Positions 24,729-63,594 of a stretch of 64,000 bases of DNA are shown here, one piece after another. Made by a program: the position numbers and the translations under genes. Every line of letters begins with the position of its first letter. Within the stretch, counting starts at the first letter, position 1. The notes under the pieces were generated by a model that worked only from the letters and a program-made list of their open reading frames with translations, had not been told where the DNA came from and searched no databases. The DNA lies in the NCBI GenBank assembly GCA_018651085.1, contig JABIEQ010000014.1, forward strand, positions 15,178 to 79,177. Reading direction: 5' to 3'. The DNA is from Candidatus Magasanikiibacteriota bacterium. GTDB lineage: Bacteria; Patescibacteriota; Patescibacteriia; Magasanikbacterales; UBA922.

Positions 24729-24792
24729 TGTTTTTAATATTATAATCATTTCAAAAGAAAAACACATCAAATATCTTGATGTGTTTTTTCAG

Positions 24793-24865
24793 TGACCCCG
24801 CTGGGGCTCGAACCCAGGACCATTAGCTTAAAAGGCTACTGCTCTACCAGCTGAGCTACAGGGTC
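24793..24865 (-). tRNA. tRNA-Lys (anticodon UUU)
   Basis: The reverse complement folds as acceptor GACCCTG/CGGGGTC, D-arm TAGCTCAGCTGGTAGAGCA, anticodon loop CTTTTAA, T-arm CTGGGTTCGAGCCCCAG. No CCA is encoded. Confidence 0.85.
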
Positions 24866-34708: not shown

Positions 34709-34779
34709 TCGGGGATCGTCTAATGGTAGGACACCAGGTTTTGGTCCTGGGTATCGGGGTTCGAATCCCTGTCCCCGAG
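34709..34779 (+). tRNA. tRNA-Gln (anticodon UUG)
   Basis: Acceptor TCGGGGA/TCCCCGA, anticodon stem CCAGG/CCTGG with loop TTTTGGT, T-arm CGGGGTTCGAATCCCTG, discriminator G. No CCA. Confidence 0.8.
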
Positions 34780-34809
34780 CAGGCGTTTACGCCTTAACAA
34801 CATAGATAT

Positions 34810-35204
34810 TCGGCGGTAGCTCAGTGGTAGAGCAGTTGGCTGTAAAAATACTTGTATGGATGTATCCATATGAACGACTAGCAGCTCTTTGTAGGAATAC
34901 AAAGATGAATAACAAGGTGAATTGCTGGAAACCCTAACAGGAGGAGCTGAGGGTAATCAGCAGCCAAGTCTGTTTTTTCCGTATCGTTTAGTATACATTC
35001 GTGTACTGACATCGGTTACAGAAAGGTTCAGAGACTATCCCTTTTGGGAGTACTGCATAACAGTTGTTATGTGGGAAGCGCCTTGCACCCCACCGTCTTA
35101 GCATGACTAAGTATTACGAGGGTGATGATATAGTCCACACTTTAGTGAAAAACTAGAGATAATGTGTAACCAATTGGTCGCCAGTTCGAATCTGGCCCGC
35201 CGAG
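34810..35204 (+). tRNA. tRNA (most likely Asn-GUU, alternatively Thr-UGU) interrupted in the anticodon loop by a group I intron
   Basis: The 5' half TCGGCGG-TA-GCTCAGTGGTAGAGC-A-GTTGG-CTGT is followed by a ~323-nt insertion, then TAA-CCAAT-TGGTC-GCCAGTTCGAATCTGGC-CCGCCGA-G. The acceptor and T arms pair perfectly. The reconstituted loop CUGUUAA equals the canonical tRNA-Asn loop. Confidence 0.8.
34844..35166 (+). other. group I self-splicing intron (no ORF) within the tRNA anticodon loop
   Basis: Canonical R element GTTCAGAGACTA (35028-35039) and S element GATATAGTCC (35127-35136) forming P7. The 5' exon ends in U. The intron ends in G. A candidate internal guide sequence GCAGCU (about 34881-34886) pairs with the exon end GGCUGU to form P1. 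The exact splice boundaries are inferred. Confidence 0.75.
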
Positions 35205-60931: not shown

Positions 60932-60965
60932 CCTCTACCTAGACAAAAATAACAAAAATATCCCT

Positions 60966-60995
60966 GCATAAGAGGGATATTTGTATTTTTAGGCT
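60966..60995 (+). terminator. rho-independent terminator after greA (atatccct-gcataa-gagggatat then a T-run)
   Basis: A 9-bp stem followed by ttgtattttt. Confidence 0.6.
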
Positions 60996-61060: not shown

Positions 61061-63172
61061 ATGGAAGAAAAAAATATAAACATTAATGACGAAAGGGATG
61101 TTCGTCTCAACAAACTACAGACCCTTATAAAAGAGGGGATTAACCCATACCCAGCAAGAGTACATAGAACGCATACTCTAAAAGAAGCTCTTGAAGAAAA
61201 AGAAGGACAAGAAATGACTGTTACAGGACGTCTCATGACAAAAAGAGACATGGGGAAACTTACGTTTGCTCATCTTCAGGATGGAACAGGACGAATGCAG
61301 ATTGCGTTAAAAAAGGATGAAATTGACGAAGCAGCCTACAAGCATTTTCTTAAAAAAATAGACAGTGGTGACATTATTGAAGTTACTGGAGAAAAATTTA
61401 TTACACATAAAAAAGAACCATCAGTATTAGTACGATCGTTTACATTACTATCAAAAGCACTGCTTCCACTACCAGATAAATTTCATGGACTCAATGACGA
61501 AGAAACACGCTATAGAAAACGATACTTAGATTTTCTTATAAATGAAGGTCAAAAAGAAAAAATCATCGTACGATCTCGCATTTTAAAATACATGCGAGAC
61601 TATTTAGATAATGCTGGATTTATTGAAGTAGAGACACCAAGCTTAGAAGTTGTTGCATCAGGTGCACTTGCTCAAACTTTTGATACCCATTTAAATGCTT
61701 TTGATCTCCCAGTACACATGCGTATTTGTATGGGAGAATTATGGCAAAAAAGATTATTGATTGGTGGTTTTGAAAAAACATACGAAATTGGGCGCGCGTA
61801 TAGAAACGAAGGCGTGGATCACTCACACAACCCAGAATTCACCATGATGGAATTCTACTGGGCATATGCTGACATTAACGACAACATCAAACTTCATGAA
61901 GAAATGATGCCCTTCATTGTAGAAAAAAGTGTTGGCACACTTAAAATAGAAAACGATGGAGACATTATCAATTTTACAACACCATATCCACGCATCACAT
62001 TTCACGATGCCGTATTAGAGCATAGTGGTATTGATATTAATAACTACGACGATGCAACTTCTTTAGGAAAGGCAATGAAAGAAAAAGGATATGACGTAGA
62101 AAAAGGAGCTGAGCGAGGAAAACTCTTAGATAATCTCTACAAACAATCAACAAGACTACATATTATTCAACCAACCTTTGTATTAAACTACCCAGTTGAA
62201 TTAAAACCCCTTGCTAAAAAGGCAGAAGACCCTCGTTACACAGAAATGTTCCAACTTGTTATTAAAGGATTTGAATTAAGTAACTCATACACTGAACTTA
62301 ATGATCCAATTGATCAACGAGAACGATTCGAAGAGCAAGCAAGACTTGCTGAAGCCGGTGAAGAAGAAGTCATGGGATATGATCACGATTACGTTGAAGC
62401 ATTAGAATACGGCATGCCCCCAGCAACAGGGACTGGCATTGGAATTGATCGGCTTGCAGCATTAATCACAAATTCACACACCCTTCGAGAAGTAACAGCA
62501 TTTCCACTCATGAAACCAGAACAAGGAAGTACTTCTCAAAAGAAAAAAACAACAACACCAAAAAAAGAAGACAGTGCTCCTAGAACAGTAAATGAACTTC
62601 CCATGAGTCGCGACGAAGCCTGGGAACTTGTTCTTAAACACAACAGCGCAACACCAGACTTACAACACTATAGAGAAAGCGAAGTAATCCTTCGTGCCCT
62701 TGCAAAACGTCTTGGACGAGATGTTGAATACTGGGGAATGCTTGGTATGCTTCATGATATTGATTGGGGGCTTACAAAAGAAGAACCAAAGACACACCTA
62801 ACAAAAATGCCTGCCATCTTACGTGAAGCTGGATTTAATGATCAATTTATTGAAGATGTATTGTCTCACGGATATGGCTGTGAATGTGCAGATCTCGATA
62901 ATATGACAAGAGACTGTGAAATCCAATATGCACTTGCCTGTGGAGAAACAGTAACTGGACTTGTATACGCTGCAGCAAGAATGCGACCAGAAAAAATTGC
63001 ATCATTAGAATTACGTTCATTAAAGAAAAAATTCAAAAACAAGAAATTTGCAGAAAAAGTGAATAGGGATGTTATCCGTGAATGTGAAAAACTCGGTATT
63101 GAACTCGACGAATTTTTACAACTGGCAATTGATGCTATGAAAGAAATTGCTGAAGAAATTGACCTTGCCTAA
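61061..63172 (+). CDS. lysS: lysyl-tRNA synthetase (class II) fused to a C-terminal YqeK-like HD-domain phosphohydrolase
   Basis: Residues 1-490 are a complete LysRS: OB anticodon-binding domain, motif 2 FRNEGVDHSHNPEFTMMEFY, motif 3 GIGIDRL. After a K/T-rich linker, residues about 515-703 carry H...LHDIDW...H...D spacing typical of YqeK/HD-family hydrolases. Confidence 0.8.
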   Translation: MEEKNININDERDVRLNKLQTLIKEGINPYPARVHRTHTLKEALEEKEGQEMTVTGRLMTKRDMGKLTFAHLQDGTGRMQIALKKDEIDEAAYKHFLKKIDSGDIIEVTGEKFITHKKEPSVLVRSFTLLSKALLPLPDKFHGLNDEETRYRKRYLDFLINEGQKEKIIVRSRILKYMRDYLDNAGFIEVETPSLEVVASGALAQTFDTHLNAFDLPVHMRICMGELWQKRLLIGGFEKTYEIGRAYRNEGVDHSHNPEFTMMEFYWAYADINDNIKLHEEMMPFIVEKSVGTLKIENDGDIINFTTPYPRITFHDAVLEHSGIDINNYDDATSLGKAMKEKGYDVEKGAERGKLLDNLYKQSTRLHIIQPTFVLNYPVELKPLAKKAEDPRYTEMFQLVIKGFELSNSYTELNDPIDQRERFEEQARLAEAGEEEVMGYDHDYVEALEYGMPPATGTGIGIDRLAALITNSHTLREVTAFPLMKPEQGSTSQKKKTTTPKKEDSAPRTVNELPMSRDEAWELVLKHNSATPDLQHYRESEVILRALAKRLGRDVEYWGMLGMLHDIDWGLTKEEPKTHLTKMPAILREAGFNDQFIEDVLSHGYGCECADLDNMTRDCEIQYALACGETVTGLVYAAARMRPEKIASLELRSLKKKFKNKKFAEKVNRDVIRECEKLGIELDEFLQLAIDAMKEIAEEIDLA

Positions 63173-63177
63173 GCACT

Positions 63178-63594
63178 ATGAAAACTGTAATGATTTTTGG
63201 AACATTTGATATTCTTCACCAAGGCCATTTGTCTGTGTTTAAGGCCGCAAGACGTGCTGGAGATCATGTCATTACTGTCGTAGCAAGAGACACCACGGTA
63301 AAAAAACACAAACAACATCCCATCCACACAGAACTTGAAAGAAAACGAATGCTTGAGTGTATTTCACTTATCGATGAAGTTGTTCTTGGCTGCAAAAAGA
63401 ATCCATATAAAATCATAAAAAACAAACAACCAGATATTATCCTTCTCGGATATGATCAAAAAGTTTTTGTAGATCAACTCAAAGAAAAATTAAAAGAATT
63501 TGGCCTATCAACAAAAGTGAAACGATTGCCCTCGTATAAACCAAAAACATATAAATCAAACAAGATTAGACAAAAAATGGAGAAATCCATGTAA
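63178..63594 (+). CDS. cytidylyltransferase-like (HxGH nucleotidyltransferase) protein
   Basis: FGTFDILHQGH motif and the size (138 aa) typical of small CTP:glycerol-3-P / FAD-synthetase-like nucleotidyltransferases. Confidence 0.6.
   Translation: MKTVMIFGTFDILHQGHLSVFKAARRAGDHVITVVARDTTVKKHKQHPIHTELERKRMLECISLIDEVVLGCKKNPYKIIKNKQPDIILLGYDQKVFVDQLKEKLKEFGLSTKVKRLPSYKPKTYKSNKIRQKMEKSM

What the first reader, a model, noticed from the sequence alone, without database searches (positions are those of the whole stretch)
61061..63172. LysRS fused in-frame to a YqeK-like HD phosphohydrolase domain
Seen directly: a complete class II LysRS (about 490 aa) continues without a stop through a K/T-rich linker into about 190 aa containing LHDIDW and the H/D spacing of HD-domain hydrolases. 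From established knowledge, LysRS is the major cellular source of Ap4A, and YqeK-type HD proteins are Ap4A hydrolases. A covalent synthetase-hydrolase fusion would couple production and removal of the alarmone. To my knowledge it is not a standard architecture.
Basis: partly seen in the sequence, partly recalled or inferred. Interest (0 to 1): 0.6.

Follow-up and report, generated by a model that had tools for sequence, protein, structure and literature searches.

The report
LysRS fused to an HD hydrolase
A real, conserved gene in tiny-genome (CPR) bacteria joins the lysine-tRNA charging enzyme to a metal-dependent HD hydrolase from an uncharacterised family; in related bacteria and DPANN archaea the two are neighbouring genes, so the hydrolase most likely works with lysine-tRNA charging, although its substrate is unknown.

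Summary
ORF 61061-63172 (+) encodes 703 aa: a bona fide class II LysRS (residues 1-487), a disordered K/T-rich linker, and a 190-aa HD-fold domain. It is not an artefact. The identical protein sits on at least 23 contigs, and 16 fusion orthologues (43-68% identity) keep every candidate catalytic residue.

The C-terminal domain is an HD-superfamily hydrolase with an H..HD..H..H..E/D signature, but it is not a YqeK (COG1713) member:
- No YqeK model hit.
- YqeK's catalytic HDxxK lysine is an invariant Trp here.

The main new result concerns this HD subfamily (3,637 clusters, uncharacterised).
- It is genomically tied to LysRS. In 30 of 50 judgeable CPR/DPANN loci, lysS lies just upstream, usually overlapping or fused. 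Four of these are the unrelated class I LysRS.
- 19 of the top 150 family representatives are LysRS-HD fusions.
- The tail behaves as a labile cassette in Magasanikbacteria: none, HD or DUF2000. B3_4 and HAD tails occur in other CPR/DPANN fusions.

Ap4A/Np4N clean-up is the leading hypothesis but is unproven (about 0.35-0.4). An RNA- or tRNA-directed role is a serious rival. I rate this a new variant of a known kind, with moderate to high interest.

The parts
61061..63172 (+). Whole lysS-HD gene (703 codons plus a TAA stop)
   Evidence: Single ORF. The identical product is found on at least 23 contigs. Sixteen aligned fusion proteins, including this one.
61217..61450 (+). LysRS anticodon-binding OB fold (residues 53-130)
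   Evidence: Pfam PF01336, E 1e-14.
61496..62512 (+). Class II LysRS catalytic core (residues 146-484), with motif 2 (RNEG 248-251) and motif 3 (G457, G459, R464) intact
   Evidence: Pfam PF00152, E 2e-76. NCBIfam TIGR00499 scores 528 bits against a 427.6 cut-off. These residues are invariant columns in A1.
62507..62602 (+). Disordered, K/T/S-rich linker (residues ~483-514). Its length (18-36 aa) and sequence are not conserved among the fusions.
   Evidence: Full-length AF2 model: pLDDT <50 for residues 483-507, pTM 0.58. Linker comparison. No Shine-Dalgarno-like sequence before Met515.
62603..63169 (+). HD-superfamily domain (residues 515-703) of an uncharacterised HDIG-type family.

Candidate metal ligands:
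- H536 (nt 62666-62668)
- H565-D566 (nt 62753-62758)
- H579 (nt 62795-62797)
- H603 (nt 62867-62869)
- E629 (nt 62945-62947)

It also carries an invariant HDxDW motif and the basic motif LKKKFKNKKFA (nt 63020-63052).
63178..63594 (+). Downstream 138-aa cytidylyl/adenylyl-transferase-like gene, 5 nt after the stop. This is context only and is not part of the conserved LysRS-HD module.
   Evidence: PF01467, E 1e-20; no NCBIfam equivalog reaches its cut-off. It is present after lysS in relatives with and without the HD tail. It is absent from the genome-derived HD loci L010-L089, which include DPANN and CPR.
60956..60982 (+). Terminator-like hairpin after greA. It suggests that lysS-HD starts its own transcription unit.
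   Evidence: Consensus scan only.

Best explanation
The gene encodes a genuine bifunctional protein. A working class II lysyl-tRNA synthetase carries a complete HD-superfamily metal-dependent phosphohydrolase on a flexible, disordered tether of about 30 residues. The hydrolase belongs to a widespread, uncharacterised family.

Shown:
- The fusion is real and conserved.
- The HD domain keeps an invariant H..HD..H..H..E/D set, typical of dinuclear HD enzymes.
- This HD subfamily is genomically coupled to LysRS across CPR bacteria and DPANN archaea, through fusions and overlapping lysS-HD operons.

Inferred:
- The HD domain is catalytically active.
- It acts next to LysRS on a phosphorylated product of the lysine-charging reaction.
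- The most likely substrates are the dinucleoside polyphosphates (Ap4A, Ap3A, Ap4N) that LysRS makes when lysyl-adenylate is attacked by a nucleotide. The side-product would then be destroyed where it is made, a 'producer plus cleaner' arrangement like NadD-YqeK.
For: The fusion is real and under selection:
- H536, H565, D566, D568, W569, H579, H603, T632, G633, K656, K657, K659, F663 and R669 are invariant in all 16 fusions. Position 629 is E or D. This holds at 43-68% overall identity.

Linkage to LysRS:
- lysS lies upstream on the same strand in 30 of 50 judgeable CPR/DPANN-type loci.
- In 21 of those it is fused or directly adjacent: the aligned LysRS and HD segments lie no more than 140 nt apart, and the stop-to-start distances measured run from -20 to +46 nt.
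- 19 of the top 150 family representatives are LysRS-HD fusions.
- Fusions arose or recombined repeatedly. P0204 versus P0127 shows 48% identity in the LysRS core but 78% in the HD domain, at the same chromosomal locus. Fused HDs fall in several HD clades.

HD chemistry and the Ap4A lead:
- The HD fold is confident.
- The only sequence-level PDB hits are YqeK Ap4A hydrolases (hhalign 92%).
- A six-ligand motif is diagnostic of dinuclear HD enzymes such as YqeK (PMC8177086).
- Class II LysRS is the classic Ap4A source (PMC10148737).
- NadD-YqeK is a precedent for a fused adenylyltransferase plus HD diphosphatase that removes erroneous dinucleotides (PMC9426524).
- The family is also fused to, or neighbours, nucleotide house-cleaning enzymes: HD-Ham1p (P0392), LysRS-HAD-HD (P0327), and Ham1p-NUDIX two genes downstream in Magasanikbacteria.
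- The domain is acidic (median pI 5.8), which is weak evidence for a small-molecule substrate.
Against: - It is not a COG1713/YqeK member. YqeK is not the closest fold. YqeK's catalytic Lys62 is replaced by an invariant Trp (PMC11857287).
- The same HD subfamily sits directly after class I LysRS in L029 and L104, and near it in L022 and L103. Class I LysRS activates lysine only with tRNA bound (PMC11961388) and is not a documented Ap4A producer.
- Co-fused or intervening domains point to tRNA or RNA: tRNA_bind plus B3_4 (P0227, L019), DUF2000 (P0271) and NYN (L021). A uS3-HD fusion (L005) points to the ribosome.
- The tail is dispensable. Closely related Magasanikbacteria have plain or DUF2000-tailed LysRS at the same locus.
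- Family members in Clostridia and Bacteroidales show no lysS linkage.
- No biochemical data exist.
Confidence: 0.38

Rival explanations
1. The HD domain acts on RNA rather than on a free nucleotide. It could be a tRNA(Lys)-directed or translation-linked phosphoesterase. Examples are removal of 2',3'-cyclic, 3'- or pyrophosphate groups from a damaged tRNA 3' end, or a nuclease or quality-control step acting on Lys-tRNA. LysRS, or in other lineages ribosomal protein uS3, would recruit it to its substrate.
For: - Linkage to both structurally unrelated LysRS classes implies a tie to tRNA(Lys) or lysine charging rather than to class II chemistry.
- Architectures include LysRS-tRNA_bind-B3_4-HD (P0227), LysRS-B3_4 followed by an HD gene (L019), lysS-NYN-HD (L021), LysRS-DUF2000-HD (P0271), uS3-HD (L005) and HD-FtsY (P0260, L015).
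- There is a weak RNase Y hit.
- HD nucleases and phosphatases that act on RNA exist, such as RNase Y, YhaM and the CCA-adding enzyme HD domain (established knowledge).
- A conserved K-rich motif, KKKFKxKxFA, is present.
- In a Gracilibacteria genome the HD gene precedes a RelA_SpoT-domain gene. Some RelA_SpoT toxins pyrophosphorylate tRNA 3' ends (own knowledge).
Against: - The domain is acidic overall (pI ~5.8).
- No RNA-binding domain is present in the plain fusion.
- Unlike GlyRS beta, the HD doublet is retained. That argues for catalysis but does not identify RNA as the substrate.
- There are HD-Ham1p and HAD fusions, and Nudix genes lie close to fused and plain lysS loci; these point to nucleotides.
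- No known HD enzyme is dedicated to a single tRNA species.
Confidence: 0.3
2. The HD domain hydrolyses another regulatory or non-canonical nucleotide, such as (p)ppGpp/(p)ppApp, cyclic dinucleotides or damaged NTPs. Its link to LysRS would reflect co-expression with translation genes rather than substrate channelling.
For: - Related architectures and contexts: PAS-GGDEF-HD (P0286), HD-Ham1p (P0392), and adjacency to a RelA_SpoT gene (L004).
- About 40% of judgeable CPR/DPANN loci, and all Clostridia/Bacteroidales loci, lack lysS next door.
Against: - The strength and specificity of the lysS linkage (30/50 loci, start/stop overlaps, repeated fusions, both LysRS classes) is hard to explain by co-expression alone.
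- DPANN archaea are not known to use (p)ppGpp (own knowledge).
Confidence: 0.15
3. The HD domain is a non-catalytic appendage. It would be a tRNA-binding or structural module like the degenerate HD domain of bacterial GlyRS beta, or a neutral fusion of neighbouring genes in a compact genome.
For: - The GlyRS-beta HD is the best structural match.
- The tail is frequently lost or swapped among close relatives.
- Overlapping stop/start junctions make accidental fusion easy.
Against: - GlyRS beta has lost the HD doublet (Ser-Lys; PMC8464048). Here all six candidate ligands are invariant across 16 fusions and 41 family members.
- The fusion recurs in many lineages and with different LysRS cores.
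Confidence: 0.05
4. The fusion is an artefact of a frameshift or sequencing error that joined two adjacent genes.
For: In DPANN relatives the two genes are separate and overlap by a few bases, so a single indel could fuse them.
Against: - The identical ORF occurs in at least 23 contigs from different assemblies.
- Sixteen divergent fusions share a 18-36-aa linker region with no stop codon.
- There are 19 fusion clusters among the family representatives.
Confidence: 0.01

Closest known systems
YqeK (COG1713) symmetrical Ap4A hydrolase, including the NadD-YqeK fusions of mycoplasmas
   Same: - HD fold of about 190 aa.
- HDIG-like N-terminal half (hhalign 92% over 55 columns).
- Same order of six candidate ligands, H..HD..H..H..D/E.
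- Same logic: an HD diphosphatase attached to an adenylate-forming enzyme whose by-products it could remove.
   Different: - No hit to the YqeK family model.
- Lower structural similarity than to other HD families.
- The HDxxK catalytic lysine is replaced by HDxDW.
- The last ligand is usually Glu.
- Ligand spacing is different.
- The partner is LysRS, not NadD.
- Distribution is CPR/DPANN plus Clostridia and Bacteroidales, rather than Firmicutes-wide next to nadD.
HD domain of the bacterial GlyRS beta subunit
   Different: - The GlyRS-beta HD has lost the His-Asp doublet and is thought to bind the tRNA acceptor arm. The LysRS-attached HD keeps all catalytic-type residues.
- The LysRS-attached HD hangs on a disordered linker and also exists as a free-standing protein.
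aaRS with appended or trans-acting hydrolytic domains (PheRS beta B3/B4, AlaX, YbaK/ProX), and other LysRS fusions such as LysX (MprF-LysRS)
   Same: A hydrolytic or accessory module is fused to, or encoded next to, a synthetase. In some relatives a B3_4 domain sits between LysRS and the HD domain.
   Different: - Known editing domains are not HD-fold and hydrolyse the aminoacyl ester. HD enzymes are typically phosphohydrolases.
- LysX is fused at the N-terminus to a membrane lipid-lysylation domain. The NF002821 model scores 492 bits against a 742 cut-off here.
HD domain of the bacterial CCA-adding enzyme, RNase Y and YhaM
   Same: These are HDIG-type HD domains that act on RNA 3' ends or RNA, and they sit in tRNA/RNA-processing proteins.
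   Different: There is only marginal sequence similarity (RNase Y model 15 bits against a 454 cut-off). No nucleotidyltransferase, KH or OB partner domains are present.

Membership tests
Class II lysyl-tRNA synthetase (LysS) | Match to the LysS equivalog model above its curated cut-off | tested here: met
   TIGR00499 scores 527.9 bits against 427.6. NF001756 scores 579 bits against 468.
Class II lysyl-tRNA synthetase (LysS) | N-terminal OB anticodon-binding domain plus a class II core with motifs 2 and 3 | tested here: met
   PF01336 at residues 53-130 and PF00152 at 146-484. R248-N249-E250-G251, G457, G459 and R464 are invariant in A1.
HD superfamily (PF01966 / HDIG TIGR00277) | Profile match and a conserved H...HD...D metal-binding pattern | tested here: met
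   - PF01966 scores 22.4 bits against 22 for this domain. Most of the listed homologues carry a precomputed PF01966 hit.
- HDIG scores 27.2 bits against 27.6, just under the cut-off.
- H28, H57-D58 and E121 (A2 numbering) are invariant in 41 sequences.
HD superfamily (PF01966 / HDIG TIGR00277) | All-helical HD fold | tested here: met
YqeK / COG1713 Ap4A hydrolase | Match to the family model that NCBI uses to name YqeK | tested here: not met
   No YqeK model appears among the NCBIfam hits at E<=1.
YqeK / COG1713 Ap4A hydrolase | Six-residue dinuclear motif H..HD..H..H..D | tested here: inconclusive
   Six conserved residues occur in the same order: H536, H565, D566, H579, H603 and E/D629. Their spacing differs and the last residue is usually Glu. 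The geometry could not be checked because no coordinates were available.
YqeK / COG1713 Ap4A hydrolase | Catalytic or ADP-binding lysine three residues after the HD Asp (HDxxK, Lys62 in S. pyogenes) | tested here: not met
   The equivalent position is an invariant Trp (HDIDW) in A1 and A2. The Lys62Ala effect is described in PMC11857287.
YqeK / COG1713 Ap4A hydrolase | YqeK structures are the closest structural relatives | tested here: not met
YqeK / COG1713 Ap4A hydrolase | Clustering or fusion with nadD | tested here: not met
   The downstream nucleotidyltransferase is CTP_transf_like, but nadD models score 16-23 bits against cut-offs of 112-187 or more. It is not conserved next to the HD gene outside Magasanikbacteria.
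YqeK / COG1713 Ap4A hydrolase | Symmetrical hydrolysis of Ap4A to 2 ADP | not testable with these tools
   This needs an enzyme assay.
GlyRS-beta-type non-catalytic HD domain | Loss of the His-Asp doublet | tested here: not met
   H565-D566 are invariant here. GlyRS beta has Ser-Lys at that position (PMC8464048).

The most novel reading that the evidence does not exclude
The HD family is a dedicated partner of lysine-tRNA charging, and its real substrate is tRNA(Lys) or Lys-tRNA(Lys). It would be the first HD-fold tRNA repair or quality-control factor specific to one synthetase. It would be recruited independently by both unrelated LysRS classes and be exchangeable with other tail cassettes (DUF2000, B3_4) at the 3' end of lysS in CPR/DPANN organisms.
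Probability: 0.25. Interest if true: 0.8.

Novelty: new variant of a known kind. Interest (0 to 1): 0.6.

Why it matters
- LysRS is the textbook source of Ap4A, yet no organism was known to couple Ap4A synthesis physically to a hydrolase. If the HD domain degrades Ap4A/Np4N, this fusion is a natural experiment showing that ultra-small genomes treat Ap4A as a by-product to be destroyed at source. That bears on the long-running 'alarmone or damage metabolite' debate.
- Whatever the substrate, the analysis gives a first functional handle on a large uncharacterised HD family: 3,637 clusters at 50% identity, including gut Clostridia and Bacteroidales. The handle is a Rosetta-stone link plus an operon link to LysRS of both classes.
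- The analysis also shows that the C-terminus of CPR LysRS is a hot spot for swapping hydrolytic domains. This is a new facet of synthetase evolution in organisms that cannot be cultured.

Tried and rejected
1. Artefactual fusion. Rejected: the identical ORF is on at least 23 contigs and there are many divergent fusion orthologues.
2. Direct PDB sequence search with the domain found nothing. The family profile gave only sub-significant YqeK hits.
4. Retrieving full-length YqeK sequences for a full profile-profile comparison failed. Seeding with a 60-aa fragment returned only YqeK fragments of up to 104 aa. As a result only the N-terminal half could be compared.
5. The idea that the downstream nucleotidyltransferase is the HD domain's true partner, as with NadD-YqeK. 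Rejected: the gene follows lysS in relatives with and without the HD tail, and is absent from the genome-derived HD loci tested, including DPANN (L010-L089).
6. The idea that the HD domain replaces the neighbouring Ham1p-NUDIX gene. Rejected: fused genomes L170 and L171 carry both.
7. Anti-phage defence or phage origin. No PADLOC or PHROGs hit for the HD domain; no PADLOC hit for DUF2000 or the transferase.
8. Internal translation start giving a free HD protein. There is no SD-like sequence before Met515.
9. A second lysS or HD copy in the window. None found.
10. Literature searches for LysRS+HDIG, COG2316 and DUF2000 found nothing.
11. Overall charge as a discriminator between RNA and nucleotide substrates is uninformative, because the tRNA-binding LysRS core is equally acidic.
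Full report
**1. The observation**

The window contains one uninterrupted ORF at 61061-63172 (+) of 703 codons.

- Residues 53-130 match the OB anticodon-binding domain, and residues 146-484 match the class II D/K/N core (E 2e-76).
- The bacterial LysS equivalog model scores 528 bits against a cut-off of 427.6.
- After the LysRS C-terminal '...FPLMKPE' comes a hydrophilic stretch, QGSTSQKKKTTTPKKEDSAPRTVNELP.
- About 190 residues follow, containing LHDIDW at 564-569.
- Scanned alone, the tail reaches the Pfam HD threshold (22.4 bits against 22). It sits just under the HDIG threshold (27.2 bits against 27.6).

**2. The fusion is not an artefact**

- The identical 703-aa protein is encoded on at least 23 contigs from NCBI (GCA_018647845.1) and ENA assemblies, in the same neighbourhood: MreB-MreC-MreD-PBP2-GreA-lysS/HD-nucleotidyltransferase-SerRS.
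- A search with the full protein returned 15 further full-length fusions of 689-717 aa at 43-68% identity. Those that carry a source name are labelled Candidatus Magasanikbacteria. They align from end to end.
- A full-length AlphaFold model gives two well-folded halves (pLDDT about 90). They are joined by a segment with pLDDT below 50 (residues 483-507), and pTM is only 0.58. This is a flexible tether, not a fixed interface.
- Linkers in the 16 fusions vary from 18 to 36 residues and are not conserved in sequence.

**3. What the C-terminal domain is**

- The domain alone finds 7,567 homologues. The best are free-standing proteins of about 193 aa labelled only 'HDIG/HD domain protein'. They come from DPANN and Asgard archaea and Gracilibacteria, at 53-62% identity.
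- An exhaustive profile search finds 3,637 clusters (50% identity) at E<=1e-3 and 1,420 at E<=1e-10.
- A model built on 41 sequences is very confident (pLDDT 95.8, all-helical).
- Foldseek finds only weak HD-superfamily matches (best E 1e-2).

At the sequence level:
- The family profile hits only two PDB sequences, both YqeK Ap4A hydrolases, at sub-significant E values (0.038 and 0.053).
- hhalign against partial YqeK sequences gives 92% probability over the first 55 columns, up to the HD doublet.
- No YqeK model appears among NCBIfam hits at E<=1.

Residue conservation:
- Invariant in all 16 fusions: H536, H565, D566, D568, W569, H579, H603, T632, G633, K656, K657, K659, F663 and R669. Position 629 is E or D.
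- The family alignment shows the same pattern.
- The ordered set H..HD..H..H..E/D is the signature used to diagnose dinuclear HD enzymes such as YqeK (PMC8177086).
- However, YqeK's Lys62 (HDxxK), whose mutation cripples Ap4A cleavage (PMC11857287), corresponds here to the invariant Trp of HDxDW.

Conclusion: this is a catalytically competent-looking HD hydrolase of its own family. It is distantly HDIG/YqeK-like in its N-terminal half, but it is not a YqeK.

**4. The link to LysRS goes well beyond this gene**

I fetched 160 loci encoding family members, from species-representative genomes and from metagenomes. I then looked for LysRS around them.

- Among the 50 loci of the CPR/DPANN-type subfamily with enough upstream sequence to judge, 30 have lysS upstream on the same strand.
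- In 21 of those, lysS is fused in frame (L023, L090, L125) or directly adjacent. By the counting criterion, the aligned LysRS and HD segments lie no more than 140 nt apart. The stop-to-start distances measured range from -20 to +46 nt, and several show the 4-nt ATGA-type overlap.
- Four of the 30 involve class I LysRS, which is structurally unrelated: L029 (4-nt overlap), L104 (+1 nt), L022 and L103.
- None of the roughly 100 loci from Bacteroidales, Clostridia, Desulfovibrionales and similar groups (35-47% identity to the query) has an upstream lysS. The only LysRS-like match is a weak one (25% identity) about 4 kb downstream in L042.
- Among the 150 best family representatives, 19 are class II LysRS-HD fusions, some truncated by contig ends.

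Domain-wise comparison shows discordant histories:
- P0204 and P0127 share 78% identity in the HD domain but only 48% in the LysRS core. P0176 and P0124 share 70% and 49%.
- Yet type-A fused, type-B fused and plain lysS all occupy the same chromosomal slot.
- On a rough NJ tree of HD domains, fused forms fall in at least four separate clades, interleaved with operon-linked and free forms.
- On a rough NJ tree of the 117 closest LysRS cores, plain (84), HD-tailed (17), DUF2000-tailed (15) and tRNA_bind-B3_4-HD-tailed (1) enzymes are interleaved.

The 3' end of lysS therefore behaves as a slot where accessory domains are gained, lost and swapped.

**5. Other architectures of the same HD family**

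- LysRS-tRNA_bind-B3_4-HD (P0227).
- LysRS-B3_4 followed by an HD gene (L019).
- lysS-NYN-HD (L021).
- LysRS-DUF2000-HD (P0271).
- LysRS-HAD-HD (P0327).
- HD-Ham1p (P0392).
- AMMECR1-HD (P0402, and adjacent in L013).
- HD-FtsY (P0260, L015).
- PAS-GGDEF-HD (P0286).
- A uS3-HD fusion occupying the S3 slot of a Woesearchaeote ribosomal-protein operon (L005).

The partners fall into two themes. One is translation, tRNA and the ribosome. The other is nucleotide house-cleaning.

**6. Mechanism**

Shown:
- The protein is a bona fide LysRS.
- A complete HD domain with invariant catalytic-type residues is tethered to it flexibly.
- The association of this HD subfamily with LysRS is strong and repeated.

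Inferred: the HD domain is active and processes something generated or handled by LysRS.

My leading model (about 0.38) is hydrolysis of dinucleoside polyphosphates made by LysRS. In its favour:
- LysRS is the classic Ap4A source (PMC10148737).
- The nearest sequence relatives with structures are Ap4A hydrolases.
- The ligand pattern is of the dinuclear type.
- NadD-YqeK in mycoplasmas is a precedent for fusing an adenylyltransferase with an HD diphosphatase that clears its wrong products (PMC9426524).
- The Ham1p, HAD and Nudix associations fit nucleotide sanitation.

Against it:
- The failed YqeK membership tests.
- The link to class I LysRS, which needs tRNA for activation (PMC11961388) and is not a documented Ap4A producer.
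- The tRNA-related co-fused domains.
- The dispensability of the tail in sister lineages.

The main rival (about 0.30) is an RNA- or tRNA(Lys)-directed phosphoesterase or quality-control activity. Other nucleotide signals (about 0.15), a non-catalytic role (about 0.05) and an artefact (about 0.01) follow. The GlyRS-beta analogy does not transfer directly, because that domain has lost the HD doublet (PMC8464048).

**7. Comparison with what is known, and novelty**

The two component families, class II LysRS and the HD superfamily, are known. Synthetases with appended hydrolytic domains are also known.

What is not described in the searchable literature:
- this architecture;
- the LysRS linkage of this HD family across both LysRS classes and both prokaryotic domains;
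- the cassette-like behaviour of the LysRS C-terminus in CPR bacteria.

NCBI annotates the fusions simply as 'lysine--tRNA ligase'. I therefore rate it a new variant of a known kind.

**8. Verdict**

- Interest is 0.6. A synthetase or Ap4A specialist would find the recurrent, cross-class LysRS-HD coupling surprising. It also turns 'is Ap4A a by-product to be cleaned up at source?' into a direct experiment with one recombinant protein.

Noticed in passing
L005:5452-6708 (+) (Woesearchaeota GCA_005222965.1, NJBG01000001.1): One 418-aa ORF encodes ribosomal protein uS3 (KH_2 plus Ribosomal_S3_C), an E/K-rich linker and an HD domain of the same family. It sits in the S3 slot between the L22 and L29 genes. 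The public gene call (P0061, 235 aa) starts internally and misses the S3 part. This is a single instance and was not checked in other genomes.
   Followed up: partly
Relatives of the window protein: P0131, P0138, P0146, P0153, P0160, P0173-P0175, P0178, P0188, P0194, P0206, P0213, P0214, P0224: Fifteen of the 117 closest LysRS carry a C-terminal DUF2000 (PF09391) domain instead of HD. They are interleaved with plain and HD-tailed enzymes on the core tree. A LysRS-DUF2000-HD triple fusion (P0271) also exists. DUF2000 has no literature. Its only PDB relative is Atu0240 (2gax); I recall it as peptidyl-tRNA-hydrolase-2-like, but I did not verify this.
   Followed up: partly
P0227 (1072 aa), P0327 (918 aa), L019:3783-5990: Larger LysRS fusions exist: LysRS-tRNA_bind-B3_4-HD, LysRS-HAD-HD, and LysRS-B3_4 followed by a separate HD gene. 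B3_4 is the PheRS editing-domain fold.
   Followed up: partly
L029:4110-5615, L104:4-681, L022:3779-5362, L103: Class I LysRS (PF01921) lies directly upstream of the HD gene in a Woesearchaeote (4-nt overlap) and in a metagenome contig (+1 nt). It lies nearby in a Patescibacteria genome and in another metagenome contig. So the HD family is linked to both unrelated LysRS classes.
   Followed up: yes
L170, L171 versus L008, L172 (Magasanikbacteria lysS loci): Two LysRS core types (motif 3 GTGIGIDR versus GFGFS-ER, about 48% identical) occupy the same syntenic slot and carry nearly the same HD tail (up to 78% identical). This suggests in-situ replacement of the synthetase core, or recombination of the tail.
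   Followed up: partly
window 34809-35200 (+): A tRNA gene appears to be interrupted by a group I intron (Rfam RF00028 at 34870-35158, 68 bits). tRNA halves flank it: 5' TCGGCGGTAGCTCAGTGGTAGAGCAGTTGG and 3' GGTCGCCAGTTCGAATCTGGCCCGCCGA. It lies just downstream of tRNA-Gln (34709-34780). The exact splice sites and the tRNA identity were not resolved.
   Followed up: partly
window 24792-24865 (-): A tRNA-Lys(UUU) gene, the cognate tRNA of the fused synthetase, lies 36 kb upstream. It was not analysed further.
   Followed up: no
window 63178-63594 (+): A 138-aa cytidylyl/adenylyl-transferase-like protein starts 5 nt after the lysS-HD stop. No NCBIfam equivalog reaches its cut-off (best partial matches are RfaE domain II, glycerol-3-P cytidylyltransferase and archaeal PPAT), so its substrate is unknown. 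In relatives it is followed by a Ham1p-NUDIX fusion gene, which this window's locus lacks.
   Followed up: partly
L004:6001-7577 (Gracilibacteria GCA_021736215.1): A free-standing HD gene of the family lies directly upstream of a RelA_SpoT-domain (alarmone-synthetase-like) gene, with Dus, TyrRS and tRNA_bind genes nearby. This could be a hydrolase/synthetase pair.
   Followed up: no
P0260, L015:5671-7506; P0402, L013; P0392; P0286: Other fusion partners of the HD family are FtsY (SRP receptor), AMMECR1 (also adjacent in L013), Ham1p/ITPase and PAS-GGDEF.
   Followed up: partly
P0234 and P0236 (same 344,796-bp ENA contig): Two plain class II LysRS genes lie on one contig in a related organism. 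I do not know whether fusion-bearing genomes also keep a second, plain lysS.
   Followed up: no
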